Below, piece after piece: positions 2 through 56,794 of a stretch of DNA of 64,000 bases. The stretch's first letter is position 1; every line of letters starts with the position of its first letter. The notes beneath the pieces were generated by a model. The model searched no databases. It was not told where the DNA came from and saw only the letters and a program-made list of their open reading frames with translations. The stretch is taken from positions 8,993 to 72,992 of the forward strand of contig JBOGKM010000029.1 of NCBI GenBank assembly GCA_050747745.1. Direction: 5' to 3'. Both the position numbers and the translations under genes were made by a program. The DNA comes from Terriglobales bacterium. GTDB lineage: Bacteria; Acidobacteriota; Terriglobia; Terriglobales; SCQP01.

Positions 2-2038
2 CTGGGCACGATCGGTTACATGGCGCCGGAGCAGGTGCGCGGCCAGGCGGCGGACGCGCGCAGCGATATTTTCAGCCTGGGCGCGGTGCTGTATGAAATG
101 CTTGCCGGCCGCCGCGCCTTTCGTGGTGATTCGGCAGCCGACACCATGAGCGCCATCCTCAAAGAGGAGCCAGACGAAATCTCCGCACCCGCGAGCGGCG
201 CCGCCGTGCCGCCGGGGCTGGAACGGCTGGTCCGGCATTGTCTGGAAAAAGAGCCGCGGCAGCGCTTCCAATCGCCTGATGACGTCGCTTACCAGTTGGG
301 CGAGTTCAGCCTCGGCTCCAACGCCACTTCGGGCGGCCTTGCCACCATGGCTGGTCCTGCGCGCCGGCGCTGGCTCTGGCCCGCCATCACCGCCGCCGCG
401 GTCATCGCTGCCGTGGCCATCACCTGGTTCGCCCGCGGCGGGAGCAGCACGGTTTCGCTACAAACCGAGCGGCTCACGTACCAGAACGGGCCCGTCGACG
501 GCGCGGCGTTTCTGCCCGGCGATCAGGCCTTTATCATCAGCGCGCAGTTCGGCGGCGCCAGCCAGGATGAACTCTACACCGGCCAGATCGGCACGCCCGG
601 CCTCGAGCCGTTGGGCGTGAGTGGCGAAGTGGTCGCCTCGGTTTCGAAATCCGGCGAGATCCTGCTGCTGCAACAGGGCCCGCATTACCGCAATGGCGGC
701 GCCGGCACTCTTTCGGAGATGCCGCGTACCGGCGGCGCGCCGCGTCCGCTGTTGGACCATATCGCGGCTGCCTGCTGGAATCCTGCAGGCACGGCGTATG
801 CCATCGTGCGCCAGGATCCAGCCACGGGCGGTGAAACGCTGGAATATCCGCCCGGCCATGCGTTGGCCGCGACTTCGGGTTGGTTCGACTACCCGCGCTT
901 TTCCCTGGATGGCCGCAACATCGCGCTACTCGACCACCCCGAGCCGGTTGATAACCTCGGCTACGTAGCCGTGGTGAGCCTAGGCGGGCACCTGCGGCGG
1001 CTTACCGCCATCTACAACCCGGCCTATAGCCTGGCTTGGGCGCCCTCGGGCCGCGAGCTTTGGTTCACGGGTCACCCCAACGCCGGCGCCGCCACCAGCA
1101 GCCTCAGCGTGTTCGCGGTCGCGCTCTCCGGCGCCGTCCACCCGCTGCTTTCGCCCGTGGTCCCTGAGTCCAGCCTCGAGGACGTCGCCGCCGACGGTGC
1201 GGTGCTGCTGAACGGAGAAAATTTCCGTGTCTCCGTGCGCGCCTTCACACCCTCTGCGCCCCAGGGCCGCGATCTCACTGTGTTGTCTTTTGCGGCGCTG
1301 GGCCAGCTTTCTCCGGGCGGCCGTGAAGCGCTGGTCGGCGACTTCATGATCACGCCCGGCTATGCGACCTATCTCCGCTCCACTGCTGGCGGCGCACCCG
1401 TCCGGCTGGGCCCAGGCGCGCCGATGGCGCTCTCACCTGATGGCCAGTGGGCGCTCAGCCTGGTTCCCACCAAGCTCCCTCAGCTCGAGCTGCTGCCCAC
1501 GGGCGCGGGAGCAGCCCGCCGGCTTACCCATGCCCAAGTCGATTTTTCGGCGGCACGCTTTCTGCCCGGCGGCCGCGGCATCGTCGCGGTTGGTGCCGCG
1601 CCGGGCCAACCGCCGCGTACCTACCTGGTCAGCCTCAGCGGCCAGGTTGCCGCGCTAACCCCGGAGGGCGTGGTCGGCGATCTCCCCACGCCCGATGGCA
1701 ACCACGTGCTGGTGCAGGATGCCCAGAACCGCTGGTTTCTGTTTCCGCTCGCCGGCGGCGCGCCGATGCCGGTGGCGCAGCTCACCAGTGCCGATCAGCC
1801 GCTGCGCTTCGGCGTGCGCGCGGGTCAGCTCTTCGTTGCCGACAAGGGAGCGAGCGGGTACGGCATTGTCAGCCTGAACCTTCGGACCGGCCAGCGGACG
1901 CTGCTGCACACGCTCGCCGCAACAGGTTACGTGTCCTTTCACACCCCCGAGATCGCCATCTCCCGCGACGGCGCGACCTACGCCTACGTCTATAAGCAAG
2001 AAGCAGGAACGGTGTATTTGGTTCGCGGCCTGCACTGA
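2..2038 (+). CDS. Ser/Thr protein kinase, C-terminal part (5' end lies outside the window): late kinase subdomains, one TM helix, TolB/PD40-like beta-propeller
   Basis: The frame is open from nt 2 (LGTIGYMAPEQ..DIFSLGAVLYEML, kinase APE/subdomain IX region). TM segment 'WLWPAITAAAVIAAVAITWF'. Repeated SPDG/SRDG propeller-like segments. Same architecture as 54170..56794. Confidence 0.85.
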   Translation: MGTIGYMAPEQVRGQAADARSDIFSLGAVLYEMLAGRRAFRGDSAADTMSAILKEEPDEISAPASGAAVPPGLERLVRHCLEKEPRQRFQSPDDVAYQLGEFSLGSNATSGGLATMAGPARRRWLWPAITAAAVIAAVAITWFARGGSSTVSLQTERLTYQNGPVDGAAFLPGDQAFIISAQFGGASQDELYTGQIGTPGLEPLGVSGEVVASVSKSGEILLLQQGPHYRNGGAGTLSEMPRTGGAPRPLLDHIAAACWNPAGTAYAIVRQDPATGGETLEYPPGHALAATSGWFDYPRFSLDGRNIALLDHPEPVDNLGYVAVVSLGGHLRRLTAIYNPAYSLAWAPSGRELWFTGHPNAGAATSSLSVFAVALSGAVHPLLSPVVPESSLEDVAADGAVLLNGENFRVSVRAFTPSAPQGRDLTVLSFAALGQLSPGGREALVGDFMITPGYATYLRSTAGGAPVRLGPGAPMALSPDGQWALSLVPTKLPQLELLPTGAGAARRLTHAQVDFSAARFLPGGRGIVAVGAAPGQPPRTYLVSLSGQVAALTPEGVVGDLPTPDGNHVLVQDAQNRWFLFPLAGGAPMPVAQLTSADQPLRFGVRAGQLFVADKGASGYGIVSLNLRTGQRTLLHTLAATGYVSFHTPEIAISRDGATYAYVYKQEAGTVYLVRGLH

Positions 2039-2041
2039 CTC

Positions 2042-3385
2042 TCATCCAGCTACGCGAGCAAACTGCTCGCCGGTGGGCTCGGCTCAACAGAACCAGGGCT
2101 CGTCAAGATAGGGAACGGTCGCGCGCGGCATCGCCTGCGGCGGCCGGCGCACACCGCCCGCCAGCGCGCAAATCTCGGCAAACGTCTCCACGCGCGGGCG
2201 CCGCATCTTCGCCGCGCGGGCGACCGCCTGCTGCACCTGCGCGCACAGCTCGTCGGCTTCGGGCTCGAGCGCGCGCCAGCGGAAGCTGAGCGCGGAGTCG
2301 TCGAACTCGCCCAGCCACTGCGCCGCGTCCGGCAGCTCCAGCATCCGCGAGCCGCGCGGCACCAGCAGACGGATGCCCCACTGCACCGGCGCGATCTGCT
2401 CCTCCAGACCGAGCTCGGCCGCCGTTTCCAGCATGGCGCGGAAGCTGGAGCGCGTGGTCCAGGGGGTGAAGACGACAAAGGTGGGGTTCAGAGGCAGGCC
2501 GAGCGCGCGCGTGAGCTCGAGCGCACGGGAAAAATCTGCCGCCGTGTGGCCCTTTTCCAGCCGTGCCAGCACGGCATCCTCAAACGATTCCACCGCGGTG
2601 GTGATGAGCACGCAACCGGCCTGCTGGAGCCGAGGCAGCAGGGCCGCATGGCGCAGCAGGTGCTCGATCTTGATGGTCACATCGAAGCTGAGGGCGGGAA
2701 ACTCGCGGTGCAGCGCCTCGGCAATGCGGACCGCGTGGGTGGGGCCATTGAAAAAATCAGGGTCGCCAAAGGTGATGTGTTCGGCGCCGCCGGTGGCCTG
2801 CTGGCGGATGTCGGCGAGCACGATCTCCGGCGCGACGATCCTGAACTGGCCGTTATAGATGGGCACGATGGGGCAATGGCGGCAGCGGTGCTTGCACCCG
2901 CGCGAGGATTCGGTGTAGCCGGTGCGCCGGCGCGAGCCGTCCGGCAAGTGCAGATGCGCGTACTCCTCGAGCGGCGGCAGGCTGGCGCGATCGGGCCGGA
3001 GGAATTGCAGGCGCGGAATTGGGCCGTCCGTTTCCTCGCCGCCCGCCAGGTCGGCCTCGAACTCCGGCCCCAACACCGTGTCCACACCCGCGGTGCGCAG
3101 CAGGTCGGCGTTGATGGGCGCGTACAGTCCGAACGCAATCAGCCGTGCCCGCGGCGCGGCGGCGCGCAGTCGCGGCAGCAGTTCCAACGCGAGGCGCGTA
3201 GCTGTGTGCATCGGCAAATACAGTCCGACCAGATCGGCCGCAGCGAGCGCGTGGTTGTCGAGTTCGTGCCGCGAAACATCGGTGCACGCCGCCTGCCAGC
3301 CGGCGCGCTGCAGCCACGCCGCCGCCGAGGCAAGCCCGAACGGCTGCCGTCCCATCTCGTAAGTGCCGATCAGCAGCGCCCGCAT
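2042..3385 (-). CDS. B12-binding-domain radical SAM protein, CUAEP/CCAEP-tail family, predicted selenoprotein (in-frame UGA at 2084-2086 read as Sec; true stop TGA at 2042-2044)
   Basis: The ORF 2084..3385 carries the radical SAM cluster motif 'SSRGCKHRCRHCPIV' (CxxxCxxC) after an N-terminal B12-binding-like domain. It ends ...EPWFC-TGA. Continuing in frame gives AEPTGEQFARVAG-TGA, so the tail reads F-C-U-A-E-P. A hairpin lies 13 nt after the UGA. Confidence 0.8.
2054..2070 (-). promoter_or_regulatory. Candidate bacterial SECIS hairpin downstream of the in-frame UGA
   Basis: The minus-strand RNA reads GCGAGCA-GUU-UGCUCGC, a perfect 7-bp stem with a G/U-containing apical loop. It starts 13 nt after the UGA at 2084-2086. 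Possible lower pairing AGC/GCU. Not folded computationally. Confidence 0.55.
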
Positions 3386-3498
3386 ACGCCCATTTTAATG
3401 GACGAGCGGCGACCAGCCCGGGCCAACCGCTGCCATTCGTAGCTTCGAGGTTCGGAACGTTTGAGTTATGCCATCCTGAAATTGTTCAGGAGGATTCC

Positions 3499-4275
3499 AT
3501 GCGGGTAGCGATTATCACCGGGGCGGCGCAGGGCATTGGCCGCAAAACCGCCGAGGTGCTGGCCGAGCGCGGCTATGCTCTGGCACTGGTCGATCTGAAA
3601 GGTTCGGCGGCGACAGCGGCGGCGGTGTGCGGGCTGGGCACGCCCGAACCGCCGCTGGATCTGAGCGGCGACGTCGCCGCTCCCAAAACCGCAGCGCAGG
3701 TCGCCGCCGCCGTCACCGGCCGCTGGGGTCATTGCGATGTGCTGGTCAACAACGCCGGCATCAGCTTCATCCAGCGCGCCGAAGAACTCGATCCGCAGCG
3801 CGCGCGGCGCGTGGTTGAAGTCAACCTGCTCGGGCCCATGCTGTTCTCGCAAGCCTGCGGGCGCATGATGCTCGAAGCGGCGAGCGGCAGCATTATCAAC
3901 GTGGCCTCGGTCGCTGGGTTGCAGGGCATCGCCGACCGTTCCGTCTACAACGCCACCAAACACGGCCTCATCGGCTACACGCGCACGCTGGCGGCGGAAT
4001 GGGGCGGGCGCGGTGTGCGCGTCAACGCGGTTTGTCCGGGCTGGGTGAAAACCGAAATGGACGATAGCGCGCAGGCTTCCGGCCTCTACTCCGACGCTGA
4101 CATCACCGCCCGTGTCCCCATGGGCCGCTTTGCCCTGCCCGAGGATGTCGCGCGCGCCATCGCCTTTCTGGCCGATCCGGCCGAGAGCGGTTTCATCAAC
4201 GGCGTGGCGCTGCCTGTAGATGGCGGCTGGACCGCCGACGGAAGCTGGCACAATCTGCGTTTGGCTCACCGCTGA
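3499..4275 (+). CDS. SDR family oxidoreductase (FabG-like short-chain dehydrogenase)
   Basis: 'VAIITGAAQGIGR' Rossmann TGxxxGxG motif, 'NNAG', and 'YNATKHG' (YxxxK catalytic motif). About 258 aa, typical of a classical SDR. Confidence 0.9.
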   Translation: MRVAIITGAAQGIGRKTAEVLAERGYALALVDLKGSAATAAAVCGLGTPEPPLDLSGDVAAPKTAAQVAAAVTGRWGHCDVLVNNAGISFIQRAEELDPQRARRVVEVNLLGPMLFSQACGRMMLEAASGSIINVASVAGLQGIADRSVYNATKHGLIGYTRTLAAEWGGRGVRVNAVCPGWVKTEMDDSAQASGLYSDADITARVPMGRFALPEDVARAIAFLADPAESGFINGVALPVDGGWTADGSWHNLRLAHR

Positions 4276-4865
4276 TGCGGGAGCGGAAGCAGCAGCATGG
4301 CGATAAACAGCACGCCTATAACGTAGAGGCCGATTTCTGGGACGAGGCCAATTGCGAGCGGCGCCGGCGCGTCGATCTTCAGTCCAAAGCGGTGCAGCAG
4401 GCCGGGTAGTCCTTGCTGCGCGCGCGTCAGGTCGGCTTGCGCCACATGCGTCAGAGCGCGGCTGGCGACGATGGCGTAGGCGCAGGCCGCCAGGCCCGCG
4501 ATGGCGTCGGCCAGATACACCCAGCGCCAGCGCAGCCCTAGCCAGAGCAGGCTGAGCAGCGCGCACAGCCCGGCCACTATCGCCGCCAGCGGAACCAGCG
4601 CTCCCAGCGTGAGCGCGCGCTGCAGCTCCGGCGAAGTTTTGCCGCCCCCGAACAGCCGGGCCAGCGTCTGCGCCTGGCGGACAATATCGCGCAGCGAAGG
4701 CTGACCGGGCTTGGGCTGCGCCCTGACGGCGTGTACCGCCTCGGCGCCAAGCTGGCCGACCGTCCACTCACGCGCGGTGACCAGCGGCGCCTGCGCGCGC
4801 AGCGCGGGCAGCAGGATTACCGCCAGCACCGCCAGCACGGAAGCAGTCCACCGCAGGGGCCACAT
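4266..4865 (-). CDS. Hypothetical membrane protein
   Basis: N-terminal signal/anchor 'VLAVLAVILLPALRAQA' plus 3-4 predicted hydrophobic helices. No recognised motif. Its 3' end overlaps the convergent SDR gene by 10 nt. Confidence 0.55.
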   Translation of the reverse strand: MWPLRWTASVLAVLAVILLPALRAQAPLVTAREWTVGQLGAEAVHAVRAQPKPGQPSLRDIVRQAQTLARLFGGGKTSPELQRALTLGALVPLAAIVAGLCALLSLLWLGLRWRWVYLADAIAGLAACAYAIVASRALTHVAQADLTRAQQGLPGLLHRFGLKIDAPAPLAIGLVPEIGLYVIGVLFIAMLLLPLPHQR

Positions 4866-21800: not shown

Positions 21801-22727
21801 ATGCAACCCGAACGGCAATGGCTGGCGTGGGTGCGGCGGCAGGCGCAAGCGGGACCGCAGCGAGCGGAGCTGCGCCTCGGCATTGGCGATGATGCCGCCG
21901 TCGTGCGCCCGCGCCGCGGCTGGGAGTTGGTGCTGACCACCGATTTGCTGGCCGAGGGCGTGCACTTTGTGCGCGCCCTCGATCCCGCCGTCACTTGCGG
22001 GCGCCGGCTGGCCACGCGTGCCCTGAGCGATTTGGCGGCCATGGGCGCCGAGCCGCTGGCGCTGCTGGTTTCCAGCGCACTCCCGGCCGCTCTGCCGCTG
22101 GATTGGGCGCGGGCGCTGTATCGTGGCCTGCTGGCCGCCGCTCGCGAGGCCGGTGCCGTGCTCGCCGGTGGCGATAGCTCGGCTTCCCCGCGCGGCGTCG
22201 TGCTGGACGTGGTGGGCGTGGGCCAGGTGCCCTTGGGTCAGGCGCTGCGCCGCTCGGGCGCCCGCGCCGGCGACCGCATCTTCGTGTCCGGCGCCTTGGG
22301 CGAGGCTGCCTGGGGACGGGAGCTGGTGCAGGGCTCGCAGCCGGCGCGCACTACCGCCGAGCGCCGTGCCCGCCGCCGCCATCTGCATCCGTGCGCCCGC
22401 TGGGAACTGGGCCAGGCGTTGCGCAACCGTGCCGGCGCTTGCCTGGATCTCAGCGATGGCTTGGCCGTGGATCTGCACCATCTCTGCCGCGAAAGCGGTG
22501 TCGGTGCGGAAATTGTTGCGGCCGCGCTGCCTGCTCCCGCTGGTCTACAGCGCGCTCTGTACGGCGGGGAGGACTATGAGCTGTTGTTCACCCTCCCGTC
22601 CCGCCGCCGTCCGCCCTCCCTGCCCGGCCTGCACGAGATCGGCAGGATTACCTCCGCACGCGCATGCTGGCTGGTGAATGGCGGGCGGCAGCTCCTGAAG
22701 CAGCGCGGCTGGCAGCACTGGGCCTGA
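21801..22727 (+). CDS. thiL: Thiamine-monophosphate kinase
   Basis: 'GIGDDAAVV', 'LTTDLLAEGVHF', 'ALSDLAAMGAEP', 'LAGGDSS' and 'DLSDGLAVDLHHL' are AIR-synthase-fold ThiL motifs. Confidence 0.9.
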   Translation: MQPERQWLAWVRRQAQAGPQRAELRLGIGDDAAVVRPRRGWELVLTTDLLAEGVHFVRALDPAVTCGRRLATRALSDLAAMGAEPLALLVSSALPAALPLDWARALYRGLLAAAREAGAVLAGGDSSASPRGVVLDVVGVGQVPLGQALRRSGARAGDRIFVSGALGEAAWGRELVQGSQPARTTAERRARRRHLHPCARWELGQALRNRAGACLDLSDGLAVDLHHLCRESGVGAEIVAAALPAPAGLQRALYGGEDYELLFTLPSRRRPPSLPGLHEIGRITSARACWLVNGGRQLLKQRGWQHWA

Positions 22728-39967: not shown

Positions 39968-40109
39968 GGGCAGGTCCTTGGGAGGATGGGATGTGGGATA
40001 GCGGATGCGATGCCCCGCGCGATCGGGCCAGTTGCATGCAGGGGCGGATTTGAGTTCTCGTCGAGTAGTGTGCTATAAGAACTCCGGTCACCTTAGCAGG
40101 GGGTTACAG

Positions 40110-43100
40110 ATGCGCATGGGTCGTCGTGTGGTGTTCGGTTTGCTTCCGGTGGCATTGTTGCTGGCTGGCGTAGCGGTGGCGCAATCGGCGCCGGCTGCGG
40201 TATGGAGCCAACTGCGCTGGCGCAGCATCGGGCCCTACGTTGGCGGCCGGGTGGTCGCGGTCGACGGCGTCGCCCGGGATCCGAATCTGTTTTTCATGGG
40301 CACGGTCGGTGGCGGGATTTGGAAGAGCACCGACTACGGGCTGCAGTGGAAAAACATTTCCGACGGCACGCTGCCCGGCGCCAGCGCCAGCATCGGAGCG
40401 CTGGCGGCCGCACCCTCGAATCCGAAAATTATTTACGCCGGTACAGGCGAATGCGATATCCGCAACGACACTATTCCCGGCGACGGCATTTTCAAATCCA
40501 CCGACGGCGGCAAAACCTGGAAATACGCTGGTTTGCGCGCCACCCGCACCACCTGCGCCCTCGCCATTGATCCGCAGAATCCTGACGTTGTTTACGCCGC
40601 TTCCATGGGCCAGGTGTTCGTGCCGAATGCCGAAGGCGGAGTCTACAAGACAACCGATGGCGGCCAAACCTGGAACAAGATTCTTTCCGTGAACGACCGC
40701 ACCGGCGCGATTGACCTGGTGATGCAGCCGGGCCAGCCGGACGAGCTGTACGCCGCCCTGTGGCAGGCACAGCGCACTCCCTGGACCTTGGACGATGGCG
40801 GAGCGGGCAGCGGTTTGTACAAAACCACCGATGGCGGCGCCCACTGGACCAACCTGATCCGCAATCCCGGCATGCCCGCCGGCACCATCGGGCGGGTCGG
40901 TGTCAGCGTGACCGCAGCCGATCCCGAGCGCGTGTACGCCATCGTCGAGGCCAAGCACGGAGGTGTGTTCCGCTCCTCCGATGGTGGCCAGACCTGGAAG
41001 CGCGTGAACAAGGATTGGCAGTTGCGTATCCGCGCCTTTTACTACACCGCCTTGTATGCCGATCCCAAGGACGCCAACGTGGTCTACGCCCCCCAGGTGG
41101 CCGCGCTTTGGGTCTCGCGCGACGGCGGCGAGACCTTCCAGCGTCTGCATACGCCCCACGGCGACAACCACATCGTCTGGATCAACCCGGATCAGACGAA
41201 GATTCTGCTGGAGGGCAACGACGGCGGTGCGACCGTTTCCACCGACGGCGGCAAGAGCTGGAGCAGCGAGGATAATCAGCCCACGGGCGAGATGTACCAC
41301 GTCAACATTGACAATGAATTTCCCTTCCATGTCTACGGGGCGCAGCAGGACGAAGGTTCAAGCGAAGGTCCCAGCTCGACGCCTGCGGGCGGCATTCCGC
41401 TTTCGGCGTGGAAAGAAATTGCCGGCGGCGAAAGCACCCATGTGGTGCCCGTGCCCGGCGAACCCTGGATCAATTTCGGCAGCGGCTACTTCGAGCTGTT
41501 CACCAGCAAGAACCGGCGCACGGGCGAAGTAGACGATGTCAGTCCGGAGCCGGACATGCACGACGGCGAGGCGGCCAGCGCCATGACGTACCGCTTCGGG
41601 TGGACGCACGCGATCACCTTTTCGCCCGTGAACCCCAAGCAGTTGCTGCTCGGTGCCCAGTACGTGCTGGAAAGCTTCGATTATGGCCGCACCTGGAAAC
41701 GCATCAGCCCGGATCTGACCCGCAACAATCCCGCCACCGAAGGTCCCTCCGGCGGTCCCGTCACGCTCGATCAGACGGGCGCGGAAACCTATCCTGGCTT
41801 GCAGACGATCGCGGTTTCGCCGTTGAACGGCAACCTCATTTGGGCGGGCTCGGACGACGGCCTGGCGCACGTCACCCGCAACGGCGGCAAGACCTGGCAG
41901 GCGGTGACACCGCCGCAGTTGCCGGACCAGTCCTGGATCAGTTGCATTGAGCCTTCCTACTCCGATCCGGGCACGGCTTATCTGACCGCTCGACGCTACA
42001 TGTGGAACGACTACCAGCCCTACGTTTACAAAACCACCGACTACGGCCAGACCTGGACGCCGATCGTTAACGGCTTGCCCGCGCACAGCTATGTCTTTGA
42101 GCTGCGCCAGGATCCGGATGCGCCCAATTTGTTGTTTCTGGGCACGAACAGCACTGTCGAGGTGAGTTTCGACGACGGCCAGCTCTGGCAGCCGCTGGCG
42201 CTGAACCTGCCCACCGTCCAGGTGCGGGATCTTGCAGTCGACCGGCGTCAGGGCGAGCTGGTGATTGCCACCCACGGACGGGCGTTCTGGATTCTCGACA
42301 ATCTGGCGATGCTCGAGCAGCTCAGCCGCAAGCCGGACGCGGGTTCGACTAGCCCGTATCTGTTCACACCCGAGAAGGTCTGGCTCAGCCCGGCCTATGG
42401 CGGCGGCCGGTTTCCGCGGCCGGGTGCGGGTCAGAATCCGCCGTTTGGGGCCACGGTGTTTTTTACCATCCCCGCCAGCTATGATGGCTCGACACCGGTC
42501 CAGTTGAGCTTTGCCAACGCGCAGGGCCAGACCATCCGCAGCTTTGCGCTGCACCTGAAAAACAAGGCGGCCAATGCAGCTGGAGCGGGCGCGCCGGCGC
42601 GCGCCCTCAGTCCGGCGCAGCGGGCGCAGCGCGCCCGCCAGCGGCTCACGGCCATCACCCCGGGCACGAATCGCTTTCAATGGGATATGCGTTATCCAAG
42701 TGCCGCCAGCATCACCGGCTTCCAGCCTCCGGTGGGCGTCGGGGTGGCGTACAGCATGGCGGGACCGGTGATTACGCCGGGCGAGTACAGCGTGACCCTG
42801 AGCTACGGCGGCCAGAAGTTGGCGCGCAACTTTACCGTGGCCCTCGATCCGCGCCTGCACCCGCCCGCGGGAGCACTGGAAGCGCAACTAAAGCTGCAGT
42901 TGCAGATTCACGCCACGCTCGACCATTTGGATCAGCAAATCAATCAGGCCTTGGCCGAGCGCGCTCGCCTGCAGCAAGCCGGCAATAGCGGCGCCGCGGC
43001 CAGCCTCGGCCAGGCGCTGGCGCCGCTGGTACAGTTGAAGCTGCGGGGCGGAGAATCCGATGCCGTCTACGGCACCCGCTTGCACTTGCATCTGGCGTTT

Positions 43101-43229
43101 CTAGCGGGCGAAGTGACCGAAGGCTACCGCAGCCCCACGCCCGCAGAGCTGGCGGCCTATCAGTACCTGGCCGGCAAAATTGCTACTGCCGAGCAGGCGC
43201 TCACGGCAGCCATGGCACGGGGTCGGTAG
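40110..43229 (+). CDS. Secreted BNR/sortilin (VPS10)-like double beta-propeller protein (GH74-like glycosyl-hydrolase superfamily)
   Basis: Start ATG 40110 with a signal peptide. At least 11 Asp-box repeats of S/T-x-D-x-G-x-T/S-W type ('STDGGKTWKY', 'TTDGGQTWNK', 'SSDGGQTWKR', 'STDGGKSWSS', 'TTDYGQTWTP', ...). Confidence 0.85.
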   Translation: MRMGRRVVFGLLPVALLLAGVAVAQSAPAAVWSQLRWRSIGPYVGGRVVAVDGVARDPNLFFMGTVGGGIWKSTDYGLQWKNISDGTLPGASASIGALAAAPSNPKIIYAGTGECDIRNDTIPGDGIFKSTDGGKTWKYAGLRATRTTCALAIDPQNPDVVYAASMGQVFVPNAEGGVYKTTDGGQTWNKILSVNDRTGAIDLVMQPGQPDELYAALWQAQRTPWTLDDGGAGSGLYKTTDGGAHWTNLIRNPGMPAGTIGRVGVSVTAADPERVYAIVEAKHGGVFRSSDGGQTWKRVNKDWQLRIRAFYYTALYADPKDANVVYAPQVAALWVSRDGGETFQRLHTPHGDNHIVWINPDQTKILLEGNDGGATVSTDGGKSWSSEDNQPTGEMYHVNIDNEFPFHVYGAQQDEGSSEGPSSTPAGGIPLSAWKEIAGGESTHVVPVPGEPWINFGSGYFELFTSKNRRTGEVDDVSPEPDMHDGEAASAMTYRFGWTHAITFSPVNPKQLLLGAQYVLESFDYGRTWKRISPDLTRNNPATEGPSGGPVTLDQTGAETYPGLQTIAVSPLNGNLIWAGSDDGLAHVTRNGGKTWQAVTPPQLPDQSWISCIEPSYSDPGTAYLTARRYMWNDYQPYVYKTTDYGQTWTPIVNGLPAHSYVFELRQDPDAPNLLFLGTNSTVEVSFDDGQLWQPLALNLPTVQVRDLAVDRRQGELVIATHGRAFWILDNLAMLEQLSRKPDAGSTSPYLFTPEKVWLSPAYGGGRFPRPGAGQNPPFGATVFFTIPASYDGSTPVQLSFANAQGQTIRSFALHLKNKAANAAGAGAPARALSPAQRAQRARQRLTAITPGTNRFQWDMRYPSAASITGFQPPVGVGVAYSMAGPVITPGEYSVTLSYGGQKLARNFTVALDPRLHPPAGALEAQLKLQLQIHATLDHLDQQINQALAERARLQQAGNSGAAASLGQALAPLVQLKLRGGESDAVYGTRLHLHLAFLAGEVTEGYRSPTPAELAAYQYLAGKIATAEQALTAAMARGR

Positions 43230-51494: not shown

Positions 51495-54026
51495 CTAATT
51501 CACGAGTGGTGGCTGGTCGGCGTTGCCGTTGGCTTCCGCTTCTTCCGGGGGCAGGACGCTGGCGGCGGCGACCTGGTCGCCCTCCTCCAGGCGCAAGATG
51601 CGCACGCCCTGGCTGGCGCGGCCGACTTCGCGGATTGAGCTGCTGCCGCAGCGGATGATCTTGCCCTGCTGGGAAATGATCATCACCTCGGGAGCCTCGC
51701 TCACCGCCATTACCGCCACCACTTTGCCGTTGCGGGCGGTGGTTTTCAGGTTGATCACGCCCGAGCCGCCGCGCGACTGCAGCCGGTACTCGGAAAGGGA
51801 AGTGCGCTTGCCGTAGCCGCCTTCGGTGACGCTGAGGATGAGCTGACCGGGGTCGCTGGCCACTTCCATGCCCACGATGAAGTCGCCTTCGTCCAGCCGC
51901 ATGCCGCGCACGCCCGCCGCGGTACGGCCCATCGAGCGCACACCCGATTCCGGGAAGCGAATGCTCTGGCCCTCGTGTGTGGCCAGGAAGATTTCACTCC
52001 TGCCGTCGCTGAGGTTGGCGTTCACCAGCTCGTCGCCCTTATCCACACCCATGGCGATGATGCCGCGCGCCATGGGATTGGAGAAGTCCTGGACACGGGT
52101 TTTCTTGATTGTGCCCTGGCGCGTGACCATGACAATGAATTCGTTCTGGCTTTCCAGACCCTTGATGGGCAGCATTGAGCGCATTTCCTCGCCCGGTTGC
52201 AGCGCCACCAGGCTCTGCACCGCCTTGCCCTTGCTGGCCGCGCCGGCGTCTGGAATTTCATAAACCTTGAGCCAGTACACGCGGCCGGTGTTCGTAAACA
52301 CCAGGATGTAGCTGTGGGTGGAGGAGACGAACAGATGCTCCACGAAATCCTCTTCGCGCGTGCCCGCGCCGCGCCGCCCGCTGCCGCCGCGGCGCTGTTG
52401 GCGGTAGGTGGAAATCGGCGTGCGCTTGAGATAGCCGGAATGGGTGACGGTGATGGCGACGGTTTCTTCCTTGATGAGATCCTCGAGCGCGATTTCCGCC
52501 ACCGCTTCCTGGATTTCGGTGCGGCGCGGATCCTTGTCGCCGCCGTAGTTCTTGCGGATTTCCTTGAGTTCATCGGCAATCGCGCCGCGCAGTTTCTTGT
52601 CGCTGGCCAGAATGGATTCCAACTCGGCGATGAGCTTGCGGATTTCGTTCATCTCGTCGAGAATCTTCTGTTGCTCCATGCCGGTGAGCCGGTGCAATTG
52701 CAGATCGAGGATGGCCTGCGCCTGCCGCTCGGTGAGCTCGAAGCGCGCCACCAGGCCCTCGCGCGCCTCGCGCGGACTGGACGAAGCGCGGATCAGCTTG
52801 ATGACCGCGTCGAGATGATCGAGGGCAATCTTGTAGCCCTCCAACACATGTTCGCGCTCGCGCGCCTTGCGCAGCTCGAACAGGCTGCGGCGGCGCACCA
52901 CGTCCACCCGGTGATCGAGGAAGAGCTGGATGGCCTGGCTCAGGCCCAACTCGCGCGGCTGGCCGTTGACCACCGCCAGCAGGATCATGCCAAAACTGGA
53001 CTGCAGCGCAGTGTGTTTATAAAGCTGATTGAGGATCAGCTCCGGCTGTTCGCCGCGCTTGAGCTCGAGCACGACCCGCATGCCGTCGCGGTCGCTTTCG
53101 TCGCGAATGTCGCCGATTCCTTCAATGCGTTTTTCCTGTACCAGCTCGGCCATCCGCTCGATCAGGCGCGCCTTGTTCACCTGGTAGGGAATTTCGGTGA
53201 CGACGATGGCCTTGCGGTCTTTGCCGACGTTTTCGGTGGCGGCGCGGGCGCGGACGACGAACGAGCCGCGTCCGGTGGCGTAGGCCTGGGCGATGCCGCC
53301 GTTGCCGAAAATGATGCCGCCAGTCGGGAAATCCGGTCCCTTCACATGCTGCATCAGATCGGCCAGGGAGGCCTTGGGATTGCGCAGCAGCTCGAGCGAG
53401 GCATCGAGGATTTCGGTCAGGTTGTGGGGTGGAATCTTAGTCGCCATGCCGACGGCAATGCCATCGGAACCGTTGATGAGCAGGTTGGGAATGCGGGTGG
53501 GCAACACCAGCGGTTCCTGCGTGGATTCATCGAAATTGGGCGCCATGTCCACGGTGTCCTTGTCGATGTCACGCAGCATTTCCTCGGCGATTTTCGTGAG
53601 CCGGGCTTCGGTGTAGCGATAGGCTGCGGGCGGATCCCCGTCCACCGAACCGAAATTGCCCTGACCATCCACCAACAGGTAGCGCAGGTTGAAATCCTGC
53701 GCCATGCGCACCAGCGCGTCGTATACAGGCGCATCGCCGTGAGGATGATACTTCTTGAGCACTTCGCCCACCACGCCGGCGCACTTCGAGAATTTCTTAT
53801 TCGAAAGCAGACCTTCGCTGTACATGGCGTAGAGAATGCGCCGATGCACCGGCTTGAGGCCGTCGCGCACATCGGGCAGGGCACGGCCGACGATGACCGA
53901 CATGGCGTAGTCGAGATACGAGCGCCGCATCTCGTCTTCGATGTTGACGGGCTGGTAGGGCTTGCCCACGGGCGGTTCGTTGCCGCCACCGGCGGGAAGT
54001 GGAAGCTGGTTCTCATCATCAGGCAT
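51495..54026 (-). CDS. gyrA: DNA gyrase subunit A
   Basis: '[32 protein letters not shown]', 'HPHGD' and '[10 protein letters not shown]' (catalytic Tyr region). C-terminal beta-pinwheel repeats with a GyrA-box-like '[10 protein letters not shown]'. Confidence 0.97.
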
Positions 54027-54169: not shown

Positions 54170-56794
54170 TCATCTTCGTTGGCGCCTGTACCATAAGTCA
54201 CAGTCTTGCCATCGGGCGCCAGCGTGACGTGAATGCCGGGCAGCAGCCAGGAGTTCGGCGGCCGCGCCGTGCGTGACGGTTCCATACAGTGCGCGGCTGT
54301 CGGCAGAAAATGTCCAGCCGTTGAGTGGCAAGCGGGTGAGCGTGCGCTCGCCAGAACCATCCGGCGAGATCATGTGAATCGAGCCGACGCCGGCTGCAAA
54401 AGCGATCCATTTGCCATCCGGCGACCAGGCGGGCCCGCCTTGCGGTGCGGTTTCAGCCACTACGTGGGGCACAAAGACGCGTGGGGCCGCGCCGCCCGTG
54501 GTCGCGACCACCATCAACCGGTTAGCCGGCCCGGCAGTGCTGAGATAGACGATTTGGCTGCCGTCCGGCGACCAGCAGGGCGCCGATTGGTAGTCCTTGG
54601 CGGGGGCGGTTAGCGGTACTGCCGGCCCGCCCGCCACCGAAGCTACCCACAACCGGGAAGGTTGTGGCAGCGAGCCGCGAGCTGTGGGGGTGAAAGTGAA
54701 CGCGACTCGGTGCGCGTGGGGAGAAAGCGCGGGGAGCTGGTAATACCCTATTGCCCCCATTTGCGCCAGCCCTACCAACTCTCGGTCGCTGACGCCACTT
54801 GAGGATTGCCGGCGAATCCAAATCGCATCCTCGCCGTCGCGATCAGTGACGTAAACCAGCGCGGATGCGTCGGCCGCCCAAGCCGGCATGCTTTGGTTGT
54901 GGACCGAAGCAATGAGCGTTCGCACTGCGGCCGTATGTACGTCCGCCGACACGATGTTGAATTTTCCGAAGGACCGATCAAGGGCCAGAGCATTGCCTTG
55001 CGGAGAAAGCGTGGCCAGATAGCCGGCCGAAATGCCCTGCATCAGCAAGTGCATCCGTCCCGACTCCAGGTCCGCCTCCCACAGCTTCGAACCGCCAGTT
55101 TGAGAATCAGCCGAAATAAGAATATGCCTTCCGTCCGGCATCCAGGTCATTCGGGCAAAGTCGCGCGGTGGCAAATTGGCCAGCACCGGCCGCGGCGGAT
55201 GCGCGGCTGAGGGCGGAAATGGCAGCACCCAGGTGCGGGTCGGGCCTTGCGCGTCGGGCAGCAACAGCAGCAATTTGCTTCCGTCCGGCGAGAACGCCAG
55301 CGATGGGAAATCGCTCAGCGCCGCCACTGCGAACGGCGCCGGCTTGTACCAGCGCAGTGGCGCGCCGATTGGGCTGCCGTAAGCCAAGCCGAGCTTGCCA
55401 TCCGGTTGCGGCAGCAGTGCGGCAACCACATTACCGCGGGCGGCGTAGGCTTCGGCTCCGCTGCCGGGCGCCGCCGGAAATTTCATGAGCAGGCGCGGCT
55501 GCCCGCCCACCGCCGCCACAGACCAAATTGACGGTGTGTTGAATGGATCTTCCACAAGGAGAATGCTCCGGCCATCCGCGCTCCATGCCAGTGGTGCCGC
55601 CATCTCCGGCATGTGGGTGAGCTGCAGCGGCGACGGGTCGCCGTAGCGGTAGATATAAACCTGGCCCGGACTTGCACTATCGGGCTGAGCCGCGTAGGCG
55701 AGGGCGCGGCCATCGGCCGACCAAACCGGGACGAAGTTATAGCCCGGGCCATTTAGCGTGAGCGTCCGGTAGGCGCTTGCCGAAAGGGTGGGCGTGCCGC
55801 GGTCCAGCATGAGCAAAGCGCATATGCCGGCGGTGATCACCACCGCAATGGCGATCCAGAGCGGCGTGCGCCAGCCACGCCGTGCCGGCTTGGACTTGCC
55901 GGAGGCGGAGGCAAGCGCGCTCAGGTTGGTGCTCGATTGATCGCTGAGTCCGGCGAGGGCGAACTCCAGATCCGCCGCGCTCTGAAAGCGCTGGCGCGGG
56001 TTCTTCTCCAGGCAGCGGCGCACGATGCGATTCAGCGACGGCGGCGCGGCAGAATCGGCTGCGGTGATCTCAGGCGGCTCCTCGCGCAGGATGGCGGTCA
56101 TGGTTTCCGCCGCAGTGGGCGCTTGGAAAGCTCGGCGGCCGGCCAGCAGCTCGTAGGTAATGGCACCGAAGGAGAAGATGTCGGCCGGTGTGTCGACCGT
56201 CTCGCCGCGCACCTGTTCGGGCGCCATATAGCCGACCGTGCCCATCACCGCGCCCGGAGCGGTCACCACGGCGGGCGAGGTCTCCGCCATGGTGTCCACT
56301 TCAGCCGCTACCGCCAGCGCCACCCGCGCCAGGCCAAAATCGAGGATCTTCACCCGCCCCTCGCTCGTGATCATGATGTTTTCCGGCTTCAGATCGCGGT
56401 GCACCACCCCAGCTGCATGCGCTGCCGCCAGACCTTGCGCCATCTGGCGAGCGTAATCGAGGGTCCGCCGCAGCGGTAATTTCCCTTGCCGCAGCCGCTC
56501 CCGCAGGGTTTCGCCCTCGAGCAGTTCCATGACCAGGAAAATGGCGCCCTGGTGCTCGCCCACGTCGTGGATGGCGACGAGGTTGGGGTGATTGAGTGCG
56601 GCCAGCGTCCGTGCTTCCTGCTCCAGGCGGCGCAGCAGCGCCGCATCGCTGCTGCCGCCCGCGCGCAGTACTTTGACGGCAACATCGCGTTTCAACCGCG
56701 TGTCGTGCGCGCGATAAACTTCGCCCATGCCGCCCGCACCCAGCAGCGCCACGATCTCATACGGTTCCAGCCGGGTTCCGGCGGGGAGCGACAT
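54170..56794 (-). CDS. Ser/Thr protein kinase with TM helix and TolB/PD40-like beta-propeller; the 3' end is probably frameshifted (continuation in frame of ORF 54094..54360)
   Basis: 'LLGAGGMGEVYRA', 'VAVKVL', 'HRDLKPENIM', 'DFGLA' and 'GTVGYMAPEQ'. TM segment 'LWIAIAVVITAGICALLML'. Multiple 'S.DG' propeller repeats. See the finding on the 3' end. Confidence 0.88.
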   Translation of the reverse strand: MSLPAGTRLEPYEIVALLGAGGMGEVYRAHDTRLKRDVAVKVLRAGGSSDAALLRRLEQEARTLAALNHPNLVAIHDVGEHQGAIFLVMELLEGETLRERLRQGKLPLRRTLDYARQMAQGLAAAHAAGVVHRDLKPENIMITSEGRVKILDFGLARVALAVAAEVDTMAETSPAVVTAPGAVMGTVGYMAPEQVRGETVDTPADIFSFGAITYELLAGRRAFQAPTAAETMTAILREEPPEITAADSAAPPSLNRIVRRCLEKNPRQRFQSAADLEFALAGLSDQSSTNLSALASASGKSKPARRGWRTPLWIAIAVVITAGICALLMLDRGTPTLSASAYRTLTLNGPGYNFVPVWSADGRALAYAAQPDSASPGQVYIYRYGDPSPLQLTHMPEMAAPLAWSADGRSILLVEDPFNTPSIWSVAAVGGQPRLLMKFPAAPGSGAEAYAARGNVVAALLPQPDGKLGLAYGSPIGAPLRWYKPAPFAVAALSDFPSLAFSPDGSKLLLLLPDAQGPTRTWVLPFPPSAAHPPRPVLANLPPRDFARMTWMPDGRHILISADSQTGGSKLWEADLESGRMHLLMQGISAGYLATLSPQGNALALDRSFGKFNIVSADVHTAAVRTLIASVHNQSMPAWAADASALVYVTDRDGEDAIWIRRQSSSGVSDRELVGLAQMGAIGYYQLPALSPHAHRVAFTFTPTARGSLPQPSRLWVASVAGGPAVPLTAPAKDYQSAPCWSPDGSQIVYLSTAGPANRLMVVATTGGAAPRVFVPHVVAETAPQGGPAWSPDGKWIAFAAGVGSIHMISPDGSGERTLTRLPLNGWTFSADSRALYGTVTHGAAAELLAAARHSRHAGARWQDCDLWYRRQRR

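What the first reader, a model, noticed from the sequence alone, without database searches (positions are those of the whole stretch)
2042..2086. In-frame UGA followed by 'AEP' and a perfect hairpin: CUAEP-tail radical SAM selenoprotein missed by the ORF track
The 433-aa radical SAM ORF ends '...LDEPWFC' at TGA 2084-2086. Reading on in frame gives A-E-P-T-G-E-Q-F-A-R-V-A-G and then TGA (2042-2044). The C-terminus therefore reads C-U-A-E-P..., the defining tail motif of the CUAEP/CCAEP-tail radical SAM (seleno)protein family. Thirteen nt after the UGA the mRNA can form GCGAGCA-GUU-UGCUCGC (2054-2070), a 7-bp perfect stem placed where a bacterial SECIS element is expected. The extension fills what would otherwise be a 45-nt gap before the convergent kinase stop at 2036-2038. 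The function of this family, and why a Cys-Sec pair sits on a flexible tail of a radical SAM enzyme, is not established.
Basis: partly seen in the sequence, partly recalled or inferred. Interest (0 to 1): 0.75.

Follow-up and report, generated by a model that had tools for sequence, protein, structure and literature searches.

The report
Known CUAEP-tail radical SAM selenoprotein gene
The apparent stop codon at the end of this radical SAM gene almost certainly encodes selenocysteine, but the family is already catalogued (and this exact protein already carries the family name in GenBank), so what remains open is its unknown enzymatic function.

Summary
The minus-strand ORF 3385..2087 ends ...EPWFC, then TGA (2086-2084), then in-frame AEPTGEQFARVAG and a second TGA (2044-2042). 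A perfect 7-bp hairpin lies at 2070-2054.

The protein clears the curated cut-off of NCBIfam NF040546, the CUAEP/CCAEP-tail radical SAM (seleno)protein, and the read-through tail completes the profile. In 79 other species the codon after the Cys is TGA in 69 and TGC/TGT in 10, never TAA or TAG. The following A-E-P codons vary only synonymously. The hairpin is kept through compensatory changes in the TGA loci and is absent from the Cys loci.

It is not new. The family is curated and named in a 2022 preprint, and this exact protein is GenBank MGH9486334.1, deposited truncated at 433 aa.

Three points are new here. The SECIS occurs in two registers that track tail length. An L-amino-acid-ligase-type ATP-grasp gene follows the rSAM gene in 52 of 68 testable loci; in this genome about 8.4 kb of other genes separates them. 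The only close characterised relative is ArsL, whose Cys tail holds As(III) for attack by a SAM-derived radical. That suggests a testable function.

Sec machinery could not be checked.

The parts
2087..3385 (-). Main reading frame of the radical SAM gene (residues 1-433, ending ...LDEPWFC)
   Evidence: ORF list and translation. NF040546 scores 556 bits against a cut-off of 500. Pfam Radical_SAM PF04055 scores 53 bits. GenBank MGH9486334.1 is the same 433 aa.
2873..2896 (-). CxxxCxxC motif (C164-K-H-R-C168-R-H-C171), ligands of the [4Fe-4S]/SAM cluster
   Evidence: Read from the sequence. All three Cys are invariant in 29- and 38-sequence alignments.
2612..2614 (-). Codon of Cys258, an extra Cys invariant across the family (motif GC[LAV][FL][VI]T). 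It is a candidate third soft ligand alongside the Cys-Sec dyad; this is inference.
   Evidence: Invariant column in alignments A1, A4 and A5. ArsL is reported to have only six conserved Cys, three for the cluster and three in the tail.
2084..2086 (-). UGA read as selenocysteine (residue 434), directly after Cys433
   Evidence: The homologous codon is TGA in 69 of 79 species and TGC/TGT in 10, never TAA or TAG.
2045..2083 (-). Thirteen tail codons, AEPTGEQFARVAG
   Evidence: The tail adds 20 bits and completes the NF040546 profile to position 467 of 468. In the Sec loci Ala is kept in 66 of 69, Glu in 69 of 69 and Pro in 69 of 69, with variation only at the third codon position.
2054..2070 (-). 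SECIS hairpin: 7-bp stem GCGAGCA/UGCUCGC with loop GUU. The loop G is the wobble base of the Gln codon CAG.
   Evidence: RNAalifold independently predicts the same helix. Five of 8 pairs show compensatory changes and 0 of 500 shuffles reach the observed score. The Gln codon is CAG in 69 of 69 Sec loci; in the 10 Cys loci it is CAA in 3, CAG in 3 and another codon in 4. Local MFE averages -10.2 kcal/mol in Sec loci and -2.8 in Cys loci, with no overlap.
2042..2044 (-). True stop codon (TGA) of the 447-residue selenoprotein
   Evidence: Translation. It lies 3 nt from the convergent kinase stop at 2036-2038.
20..2038 (+). Context only: convergent Ser/Thr kinase gene, with its N-terminus cut off by the window start. 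It belongs to the roughly 8.4-kb block that separates the rSAM gene from its usual ATP-grasp partner in this genome.
   Evidence: Pfam Pkinase. The full 861-aa gene and the block of kinase, two MacB-like genes and PadR are seen in L001.
3499..4275 (+). Context only: divergent short-chain dehydrogenase gene upstream. The 433-aa minus-strand ORF 3466..4767 that overlaps it is a shadow ORF.
   Evidence: Called gene with adh_short in L001. Many SDR models hit it at about 200 bits. The shadow ORF has no Pfam or NCBIfam hit.

Best explanation
The gene encodes a 447-residue selenoprotein of the CUAEP/CCAEP-tail radical SAM family.

Recoding (well supported). The UGA at 2086-2084 is read as selenocysteine. 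The mRNA immediately downstream folds into a small hairpin at 2070-2054, starting 13 nt after the UGA, with an apical loop carrying G-U. From established knowledge of bacterial Sec decoding, SelB-GTP-Sec-tRNA(Sec) would bind this hairpin and deliver Sec to the ribosome. Translation then continues through A-E-P and ten more codons to the real stop at 2044-2042. Beyond A-E-P, the tail serves largely as the place where the SECIS has to sit. Cys-containing homologues lack the hairpin, and three of the ten end one to four residues after AEP.

Enzyme function (inferred, about 0.3). The enzyme works like its only close characterised relative, ArsL. A [4Fe-4S] cluster on CxxxCxxC reductively cleaves SAM. 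The mobile C-terminal Cys-Sec dyad, possibly helped by the invariant Cys258, holds a soft metalloid or chalcogen substrate in the active site, where a SAM-derived carbon radical attacks it. By analogy with ArsL that radical may be 3-amino-3-carboxypropyl. The amino-acid-like product would then be passed to the L-amino-acid-ligase-type ATP-grasp enzyme encoded directly downstream in most genomes.
For: Family membership:
- NF040546 scores 556 bits without the tail and 576 with it, against a cut-off of 500, and the tail completes the profile.
- GenBank gives this exact protein the family name.

Recoding:
- The codon is TGA in 69 species and TGC/TGT in 10, and no TAA or TAG occurs among the 79.
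- 116 of the 120 nearest database proteins are truncated exactly at ...PW[FY]C. The other 4 read CCAEPT.EQ.
- The A-E-P codons vary only synonymously.

SECIS:
- A hairpin sits at the same offset in all 69 Sec loci.
- RNAalifold predicts it independently.
- Compensatory changes occur in 5 of 8 pairs in each register class, 0 of 500 shuffles reach the score, and slid-partner controls are far lower.
- The loop G is fixed: the Gln codon is CAG in 69 of 69 Sec loci, while 3 of the 6 Cys loci that keep Gln there use CAA. My arithmetic from these counts gives a Fisher P of about 3e-4.
- Local folding energies of Sec and Cys loci do not overlap.
- No T-run follows the stem, so it is not terminator-like.

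Function:
- ArsL (NF040542) is by far the next-best curated family, at 243 bits against 43 bits or less for all others.
- The ArsL C-terminal Cys tail binds As(III) and is required for C-As bond formation but not for SAM cleavage.
- An ArsL variant with a bare CC dyad (MCCA) is highly active.
- The modelled tail has low confidence and is probably mobile.
- An LAL-type ATP-grasp gene is present in 52 of 68 loci with enough downstream sequence and adjacent in 40, with a median gap of 16 nt from the tail stop.
- Its orthologue in the source contig is 43% identical, E=5e-110.
- Its nearest solved structure is the L-amino-acid ligase BL00235, E=7e-29.
- All three LAL Pfam domains score above their cut-offs.
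- Haft and Gwadz argue that CU motifs point to heavy-metal interaction.
Against: Recoding:
- No selA, selB, selD or tRNA-Sec lies in the 64-kb window, and the rest of the MAG could not be read. Sec decoding in this organism is therefore inferred from an intact UGA, SECIS and tail, not shown.
- No curated Rfam model recognises the hairpin.
- On the single sequence the hairpin is statistically unremarkable.
- I assigned each locus to a stem register by its best pairing, which inflates the percentage of paired cells. It does not affect the counts of compensatory changes.

Function:
- The ArsL score of 243 bits is below the cut-off of 450 and covers only the core (residues 118-390).
- The tail motif differs, and no ars, selenium or methyltransferase gene is a conserved neighbour.
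- Which SAM bond is cleaved is unknown.
- In this genome the ATP-grasp gene is about 8.4 kb away, on the far side of oppositely oriented genes.
- The family is very widespread in soil Acidobacteriota (at least 582 species). That fits a housekeeping role better than antibiotic synthesis.
Confidence: 0.85

Rival explanations
1. The Cys-Sec tail is a redox arm, not a substrate holder. As with the C-terminal Gly-Cys-Sec-Gly of mammalian thioredoxin reductase, a selenenylsulfide on a mobile tail would cycle between oxidised and reduced states. It would deliver electrons or a hydrogen atom into the radical SAM active site, or resolve a product radical or disulfide. SAM cleavage could then be canonical, producing the 5'-deoxyadenosyl radical.
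For: A vicinal Cys-Sec on a C-terminal tail of low model confidence is the architecture of the thioredoxin reductase redox tail (established knowledge). Most bacterial selenoproteins are redox enzymes (abstracts). Sec and Cys interchange at this site, as is typical of redox-active Cys sites. The nearest structural neighbour, AprD4, is a canonical 5'-dA enzyme.
Against: The closest characterised sequence relative is ArsL, whose Cys tail binds substrate and neither carries redox equivalents nor binds an auxiliary cluster. Haft and Gwadz find the CU dipeptide rare among selenoproteins and mostly in metal or organometal contexts such as HgcA, MerT and the SAO system. No thioredoxin-like or reductase partner is conserved nearby.
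Confidence: 0.25
2. The UGA is an ordinary stop codon. The protein ends at Cys433, and the hairpin is simply a spacer or transcript-end structure between two convergent genes.
For: The gene caller, the GenBank record and 116 of 120 database homologues end at the Cys. The hairpin is palindromic and also lies 16 nt after the kinase's own TGA on the other strand. Single-sequence folding statistics are weak. No Sec machinery is seen in the window.
Against: TAA and TAG never occur at this position in 79 species, and Cys codons replace TGA in 10. The next three codons are under protein-level selection. The hairpin covaries and is present even where the downstream gene is co-directional, yet it is absent from exactly the Cys-codon loci. 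No T-run follows the stem. The curated family profile includes the tail.
Confidence: 0.04
3. This copy is a relic. The lineage has lost Sec decoding, so the UGA now terminates translation and yields a tail-less, possibly inactive enzyme on its way to decay or to a Cys conversion.
For: Sec machinery could not be verified for this MAG. Selenoprotein loss and Sec-to-Cys conversion are common in bacteria (title and abstract of PMC1794560). The gene has lost its usual adjacency to the ATP-grasp partner.
Against: The UGA, the perfect 7-bp stem, the GUU loop and an open 13-codon tail are all intact. Against the closest relative (L002, 75% identity), the differences up to the end of the stem are synonymous and keep pairing: CCC to CCG, and CGC to CGT, which turns a G-C pair into G-U. 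The three closest relatives all keep TGA and the hairpin. The rest of the protein keeps all invariant residues.
Confidence: 0.05

Closest known systems
CUAEP/CCAEP-tail radical SAM (seleno)protein, NCBIfam NF040546
   Same: Full-length match above the curated cut-off. It has the CxxxCxxC motif, the ...EPW[FY]-C-U-A-E-P tail, Sec/Cys interchange at the same column and the same taxonomic home in Acidobacteriota/Terriglobales. GenBank already names this protein so.
   Different: No difference at the family level. This copy belongs to the short-tail, register-48 SECIS subgroup, and it is separated from the ATP-grasp gene that usually follows.
ArsL, arsinothricin biosynthesis radical SAM enzyme (RCCLKC-tail family, NF040542)
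   Same: It is the closest characterised relative: 243 bits over the catalytic core, against 43 bits or less for every other curated rSAM family. Both have CxxxCxxC plus a short Cys-rich C-terminal tail. In ArsL that tail binds the substrate As(III) for attack by the SAM-derived ACP radical. A CC dyad alone suffices in an engineered ArsL.
   Different: The score is below the ArsL cut-off of 450. The tail reads C-U-A-E-P, not R-C-C-L-K-C, so it has two chalcogen ligands rather than three thiols. The N-terminal domain does not align. There is no arsM or ars operon context. An extra invariant Cys258 is present. The partner is an amino-acid ligase rather than a methyltransferase.
Bacterial SECIS elements (archetype: E. 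coli fdhF)
   Same: A small hairpin inside the reading frame, starting 11-13 nt after the UGA, with G-U exposed in the apical loop. The loop lies 22-23 nt from the U of UGA, within the range used by bacterial SECIS predictors (established knowledge). The hairpin is conserved by covariation and is dispensable when Cys replaces Sec.
   Different: The stem is shorter (6-8 bp) and I saw no conserved bulged U. It occurs in two alternative pairing registers within one protein family. No Rfam model matches it. SelB binding is untested.
C-terminal Gly-Cys-Sec-Gly redox tail of mammalian thioredoxin reductase
   Same: An adjacent Cys-Sec pair on a flexible C-terminal extension of an enzyme whose primary redox centre is buried (established knowledge; tail flexibility).
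   Different: The fold and cofactors are unrelated, and the motif is CUAEP plus about 10 to more than 25 further residues, not a penultimate GCUG. The SECIS is in-frame and bacterial, not in a 3' UTR. No evidence of redox cycling exists.
CU-motif selenoproteins of organometallic systems (HgcA, SAO-locus proteins, MerT variants)
   Same: They share the rare Cys-Sec dipeptide, which Haft and Gwadz interpret as a soft-metal binding site. The same paper lists NF040546 beside them.
   Different: There is no sequence or fold relationship, and no mercury or organometal genes lie nearby.
AprD4 and class-B (cobalamin-domain) radical SAM enzymes
   Same: These are the best structural matches to the model of a CCAEP homologue: AprD4 6fd2 at E=7e-19 and TM 0.67, then MgmA, TsrM, OxsB and CysS. 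They share an N-terminal Rossmann-like domain followed by the rSAM core.
   Different: Identity is only 14-21%. The Pfam B12-binding hit is below its cut-off (22 against 32.1 bits). None of them has a Cys-Sec tail.

Membership tests
CUAEP/CCAEP-tail radical SAM (seleno)protein (NF040546) | Whole-protein score at or above the curated cut-off (500 bits) of the equivalog model | tested here: met
   556.3 bits without the tail and 576.4 bits with it. The profile is covered to position 467 of 468.
CUAEP/CCAEP-tail radical SAM (seleno)protein (NF040546) | Radical SAM CxxxCxxC cluster motif | tested here: met
   C164-KHR-C168-RH-C171, invariant in the alignments. Pfam PF04055 scores 53 bits.
CUAEP/CCAEP-tail radical SAM (seleno)protein (NF040546) | C-terminal C-[U/C]-A-E-P motif | tested here: met
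   ...PWF-C-(TGA)-A-E-P-T... in the window. Seventy-eight homologous loci could be read through these codons; 74 read C-x-AEP and four have a single substitution at the Ala (S, V, T) or in the third codon.
CUAEP/CCAEP-tail radical SAM (seleno)protein (NF040546) | UGA aligned with a Cys codon in non-Sec homologues | tested here: met
   TGA in 69 loci, TGC in 7, TGT in 3, other stop codons in 0.
CUAEP/CCAEP-tail radical SAM (seleno)protein (NF040546) | Sec is actually incorporated (Sec machinery in the genome; Se in the protein) | not testable with these tools
   No tRNA-Sec or SelA/B/D in the window. Other contigs of GCA_973402415.1 could not be read.
Bacterial SECIS element | Hairpin starting about 11-13 nt 3' of the UGA, inside the transcript | tested here: met
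   The stem runs from +16 to +32 in the window (13-nt spacer) and starts at +14 to +17 in all 69 Sec loci.
Bacterial SECIS element | Conserved G (with U) in the apical loop | tested here: met
   Loops read GUU, GGU, AGUU, AGUUG or AGGUG. The G at +23 is invariant (CAG in 69 of 69), although CAA would be synonymous and is used in Cys loci.
Bacterial SECIS element | Structure maintained by compensatory substitutions | tested here: met
   Five of 8 pairs carry double changes in each register class, and 0 of 500 shuffles reach the score. RNAalifold predicts the same helices.
Bacterial SECIS element | Dispensable when the UGA is replaced by a Cys codon | tested here: met
   Local MFE averages -2.8 kcal/mol in the 10 Cys loci and -10.2 in the 69 Sec loci, with no overlap. 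Three Cys forms stop one to four codons after AEP.
Bacterial SECIS element | Binds SelB and directs Sec insertion | not testable with these tools
   This needs a binding assay or a read-through reporter.
ArsL (NF040542, RCCLKC-tail radical SAM) | Score at or above the curated cut-off (450 bits) | tested here: not met
   243 bits, core region only.
ArsL (NF040542, RCCLKC-tail radical SAM) | C-terminal R-C-C-L-K-C motif with three As(III)-binding Cys | tested here: not met
   The tail is C-U-A-E-P... with only two chalcogen residues. The ArsL motif is described.
ArsL (NF040542, RCCLKC-tail radical SAM) | Genomic association with arsM or an ars operon | tested here: not met
   No ars gene in the window, in L001 or among recurrent neighbours of the 80 loci.
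ArsL (NF040542, RCCLKC-tail radical SAM) | Cleaves the C-gamma-S bond of SAM to give MTA and an ACP radical | not testable with these tools
   This needs an in vitro assay.
Cobalamin-dependent (class B) radical SAM enzymes | N-terminal cobalamin-binding domain recognised by PF02310 | tested here: inconclusive
   PF02310 scores 22 bits against a cut-off of 32.1. The fold resembles both B12-dependent enzymes and AprD4. From my own knowledge, AprD4 is cobalamin-independent.

The most novel reading that the evidence does not exclude
The CUAEP-tail enzymes are a second, far larger branch of ArsL-type radical SAM chemistry. The mobile Cys-Sec dyad, perhaps with the invariant Cys258, would capture a soft metalloid or chalcogen. 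Candidates are As(III), Sb(III), or a selenium or sulfur species. A SAM-derived 3-amino-3-carboxypropyl radical would add to it, making a methionine- or glutamate-like amino acid with a carbon-heteroatom bond. The co-transcribed L-amino-acid ligase would then build that product into a dipeptide. This would be an unrecognised and very widespread small-molecule pathway in soil Acidobacteriota, and a reason for placing Sec on the tail.
Probability: 0.25. Interest if true: 0.75.

Novelty: already known. Interest (0 to 1): 0.35.

Why it matters
As an annotation matter it is minor. The deposited protein (433 aa) lacks its selenocysteine and 13 C-terminal residues, as do about 97% of the family's nearest database entries. 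Any structural or functional work based on those records would miss the probable active-site arm.

As biology, the family is one of the most widespread selenoproteins of soil Acidobacteriota, found in at least 582 species-level genomes, and it has no known function.

Two links found here turn "function unknown" into concrete experiments that are feasible with a U434C variant. One is ArsL as the only close characterised relative. The other is a tightly coupled L-amino-acid-ligase gene downstream.

Tried and rejected
1. **Sec machinery.** ARAGORN and Rfam found only tRNA-Leu in the window. Thirty large ORFs scanned against NCBIfam gave no SelA, SelB or SelD. The single SelD-model hit is ThiL, at 254 bits on the ThiL model and 88 bits on SelD, below the SelD cut-off of 125.

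2. **Annotated context for the middle of the window.** Two exact-protein look-ups failed, probably because the called start codons differ.

3. **Curated SECIS models.** A permissive Rfam scan of 1990-2140 gave only a meaningless raiA hit at E=8.9.

4. **Terminator reading of the hairpin.** Rejected, because no T-run follows it and comparative data contradict it.

5. **The upstream 433-aa minus-strand ORF (3466..4767) as an operon partner.** Rejected as a shadow ORF over a real SDR gene on the other strand.

6. **Structure prediction of the window protein with U written as C.** No coordinates are returned, so the distances from the tail to the cluster and to Cys258 could not be measured.

7. 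**RiPP maturase reading (rSAM plus ATP-grasp).** Considered and set aside. The ATP-grasp carries the L-amino-acid-ligase C-terminal domain. The gap between the two genes is a median 16 nt, which leaves no room for a precursor gene there. My ORF clustering used a 100-aa minimum, so small precursor genes elsewhere would have been missed.

8. **Other conserved neighbours.** Only lineage-specific housekeeping genes were found.

9. **Literature.** No paper in the held library links NF040546 to ArsL or to an amino-acid ligase.
Full report
**1. The observation**

On the minus strand the ORF 3385..2087 (433 codons) ends ...VPYLDEPWFC and is followed by TGA at 2086-2084. Reading on in frame gives AEPTGEQFARVAG and a second TGA at 2044-2042. 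The inverted repeat GCGAGCA-GTT-TGCTCGC occupies 2070-2054 and starts 13 nt after the first TGA. The convergent kinase ORF ends at 2036-2038, so the extension fills the 45-nt gap.

Taken alone, the hairpin is weak evidence. Perfect stems of this quality occur about once per 860 positions in this 65% GC window. That gives P of about 0.014 for one at the right distance from a given codon. The segment's folding energy is no better than shuffles, with z = -0.69. Because the repeat is palindromic, it also lies 16 nt after the kinase's TGA on the other strand, where its loop reads AAC.

**2. What the gene is**

- The 433-aa product scores 556 bits on NCBIfam NF040546, "CUAEP/CCAEP-tail radical SAM (seleno)protein" (cut-off 500). 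The match stops at profile position 457 of 468.
- With the read-through tail appended (U written as C), the score rises to 576 bits and the match runs to position 467. The curated model therefore contains this tail.
- The protein has CxxxCxxC (C164/C168/C171) and a Pfam Radical_SAM domain.
- The exact 433-aa sequence is GenBank MGH9486334.1, already named [quoted passage not shown] but deposited without its tail.
- The source is MAG GCA_973402415.1, contig CCXETJ010000077.1.

**3. Is the UGA a Sec codon?**

- Among the 120 closest database proteins, 116 are called as ending exactly at ...PW[FY]C. The 4 that carry Cys continue CCAEPT.EQ....
- I fetched 80 loci from different species (at least 582 species carry a relative). 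In the 79 that could be read, the codon after the conserved Cys is TGA in 69, TGC in 7 and TGT in 3, and never TAA or TAG.
- In the Sec loci the next three codons vary almost only at the third position. Ala is GCG/GCC/GCA/GCT in 66 of 69, Glu is GAG/GAA in 69 of 69, and Pro is CCN in 69 of 69. That shows selection on the protein downstream of the UGA.

**4. Is the hairpin a SECIS?**

- Every Sec locus has a 5-9-bp stem, mostly 6-8 bp, at the same offset. The stem sequences differ widely but stay complementary (GCGAGCA/UGCUCGC, GGGACC/GGUCCC, AAGAGCA/UGCUCUU, CCGGCC/GGCCGG and others), and the loops always expose G-U.
- The stem occurs in two registers. In 41 loci, including the window, i+j = 48; in 28 loci, i+j = 47.
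- RNAalifold predicts these helices without guidance.
- Pair counting finds compensatory double changes in 5 of 8 pairs in each class. None of 500 shuffles reaches the observed covariation score, and every slid-partner control is much lower.
- Two internal controls come from the Cys-codon loci.
  - The Gln codon that supplies the loop G is CAG in 69 of 69 Sec loci, while 3 of the 6 Cys loci that keep Gln there use CAA.
  - The local folding energy of nt 12-37 averages -10.2 kcal/mol in Sec loci and -2.8 in Cys loci, with no overlap.
- Three Cys forms end one to four residues after AEP. In 31 of 69 Sec loci the stop lies at +36, just past the 3' end of the stem. So the tail beyond AEP mainly houses the SECIS.
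- The stem is not followed by a T-run, and no Rfam model matches it.
- Caveat: I assigned each locus to a register by its best pairing. That inflates the percentage of paired cells but not the counts of compensatory changes.

**5. What could not be shown**

The window holds no tRNA-Sec. None of the 30 large ORFs scanned is SelA, SelB or SelD, and the only SelD-like hit is ThiL. The rest of the MAG was out of reach. Sec decoding in this organism is therefore inferred from the intact UGA, hairpin and tail, and from the three closest relatives (68-75% identity) keeping the same arrangement.

**6. Surroundings**

- The 433-aa minus-strand ORF just upstream (3466..4767) is a shadow ORF. The real gene there is a divergent short-chain dehydrogenase at 3499-4275 on the plus strand.
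- Clustering all flanking ORFs of the 80 loci found one widely conserved partner, an ATP-grasp gene of about 445 aa.
  - It is present in 52 of the 68 loci with at least 1.5 kb downstream, including all 9 Cys-form loci.
  - It lies within 400 nt on the same strand in 40 of them, with a median gap of 16 nt from the true tail stop to its start.
  - It has the three Pfam domains of L-amino-acid ligases (ATPgrasp_N, ATP-grasp_4, LAL_C2).
  - Its nearest solved relatives are the L-amino-acid ligase BL00235 (E=7e-29, nearly full length) and BacD.
- A convergent yggX gene (Fe(II)-trafficking / oxidative-damage protection) follows in 42 of 59 loci.
- The source genome keeps the orthologous ATP-grasp/yggX pair (43% identity, E=5e-110). 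It lies about 8.4 kb from the rSAM gene, beyond a block of oppositely oriented genes: the kinase, two MacB-like permeases and PadR. That puts it 6.4-7.7 kb to the left of window position 1.
- All other recurrent neighbours are lineage-specific housekeeping genes.

**7. How the enzyme may work**

- The second-best curated family is ArsL (NF040542, "RCCLKC-tail") at 243 bits over the core. Every other rSAM family scores 43 bits or less.
- ArsL cleaves the C-gamma-S bond of SAM to give MTA and a 3-amino-3-carboxypropyl radical, which adds to As(III).
- The ArsL C-terminal Cys tail is not an auxiliary-cluster site. It binds As(III) and is needed for product formation but not for SAM cleavage. An engineered ArsL whose tail is a bare CC dyad is highly active.
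- Haft and Gwadz list NF040546 among the few CU-motif selenoproteins, call it uncharacterised, and argue that CU motifs point to soft-metal binding.
- An AlphaFold model of a natural CCAEP homologue is confident overall (pLDDT 89, pTM 0.89). Confidence falls to about 70 around EPWFCCAEP and to below 50 at the end, consistent with a mobile arm. The fold matches AprD4 and class-B rSAM enzymes.
- The family has one extra invariant Cys (C258) that ArsL reportedly lacks.
- Together with the amino-acid-ligase partner, this suggests that the Cys-Sec arm presents a soft substrate to a SAM-derived radical, and that the resulting amino acid is ligated into a dipeptide. I put this at roughly 0.25-0.3.
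- The main rival is a thioredoxin-reductase-like redox arm, at about 0.25.

**8. Comparison and novelty**

Every testable defining feature of NF040546 and of a bacterial SECIS is met. The defining features of ArsL are not met: the score is below cut-off, the tail motif differs, and there is no ars context. So the protein may work like ArsL but is not one.

The family, its Sec status and even this protein's name are already public, so the finding itself is already known. The following additions are, as far as the held literature shows, not described:

- covariation support for the SECIS, and its two registers tied to tail length;
- the view of the tail beyond AEP as a host for the SECIS;
- the conserved L-amino-acid-ligase partner;
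- the explicit link to ArsL.

**9. Verdict**

This is a correct rediscovery of a catalogued selenoprotein whose database record is truncated. Interest is moderate to low for the finding as such. It would be higher only if the ArsL-like functional hypothesis were tested and held.

Noticed in passing
L001 19777-21054 (source contig; 6.4-7.7 kb left of window position 1) and 52 of the loci L002-L081: An L-amino-acid-ligase-type ATP-grasp gene follows the rSAM gene in 52 of 68 testable species and is adjacent in 40, with a median gap of 16 nt. In the source genome the pair is split by about 8.4 kb of oppositely oriented genes: the kinase, two MacB-like permeases and PadR.
   Followed up: yes
L066 8901-9275 (-) as an example; L001 21057-21302: A convergent yggX gene (Fe(II)-trafficking / oxidative-damage protection, NF003817) follows the ATP-grasp gene in 42 of 59 loci. 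I did not resolve whether this is a functional link to an Fe-S enzyme or just conserved synteny.
   Followed up: partly
Loci L002-L081, 45 nt after the Sec codon: The SECIS stem occurs in two pairing registers one nucleotide apart. Register 48 goes with short tails of 15 residues or fewer (36 of 40). Register 47 goes with longer tails (27 of 28), of which the long ones (more than 22 residues) end in a conserved A-E-[AT]-F-[VL].
   Followed up: partly
L046, L050, L078 (Cys-codon homologues): Three of the ten Cys forms stop one to four residues after AEP. Beyond AEP, the tail therefore seems to be needed only where a SECIS must be accommodated.
   Followed up: partly
window 2612-2614 (-), Cys258: A fifth Cys (motif GC[LAV][FL][VI]T) is invariant across the family, in addition to the three cluster Cys and Cys433. 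ArsL is reported to lack such a residue. It may be a third ligand for whatever the Cys-Sec dyad binds.
   Followed up: no
window 3466-4767 (-) versus 3499-4275 (+): A 433-aa ORF with no family hit overlaps a real short-chain dehydrogenase gene on the other strand. It is a GC-rich shadow ORF that could be mistaken for an operon partner of the rSAM gene.
   Followed up: yes
window about 51678-52034, inside gyrA (51495-54026, -): The window is contiguous where the deposited MAG is split into contig 77 and contig 39. The contig ends map so that they overlap by about 357 nt, so the window comes from a more contiguous version, or the deposit has redundant contig ends.
   Followed up: partly
window 2036-2070 (+): The SECIS repeat is palindromic, so it also sits 16 nt after the kinase's own TGA stop. 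On that strand the loop is AAC, without G-U, and I found no reason to think the kinase is recoded.
   Followed up: partly
window 20-2038 (+) and 54170-56794 (-): Two large paralogous Ser/Thr kinases (861 and 874 aa) carry Tricorn/PD40-like C-terminal regions. One of them abuts the rSAM gene.
   Followed up: no
window 21801-22727 (+): ThiL (thiamine-phosphate kinase, 254 bits) also hits the SelD model at 88 bits, below the cut-off of 125. It is a PurM-superfamily paralogue and not evidence of selenium metabolism.
   Followed up: yes
L026 and L041: Two loci come from the same Bryobacteraceae MAG (DATAUH01), so some genomes carry two TGA-containing paralogues of this gene.
   Followed up: no
L033 7504-8256 (+) and five other loci: In six loci a conserved 244-aa ORF of unknown family lies directly downstream of the rSAM gene, about 75 nt away on the same strand. 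I did not annotate it.
   Followed up: no
window 40005-43229 (+) and 59542-62772 (-): Two proteins of about 1075 aa have partial hits to the F510_1955 glycosylhydrolase family, and the precomputed Pfam record for the second lists only a faint Sortilin-Vps10 hit. They appear unrelated to the finding.
   Followed up: no
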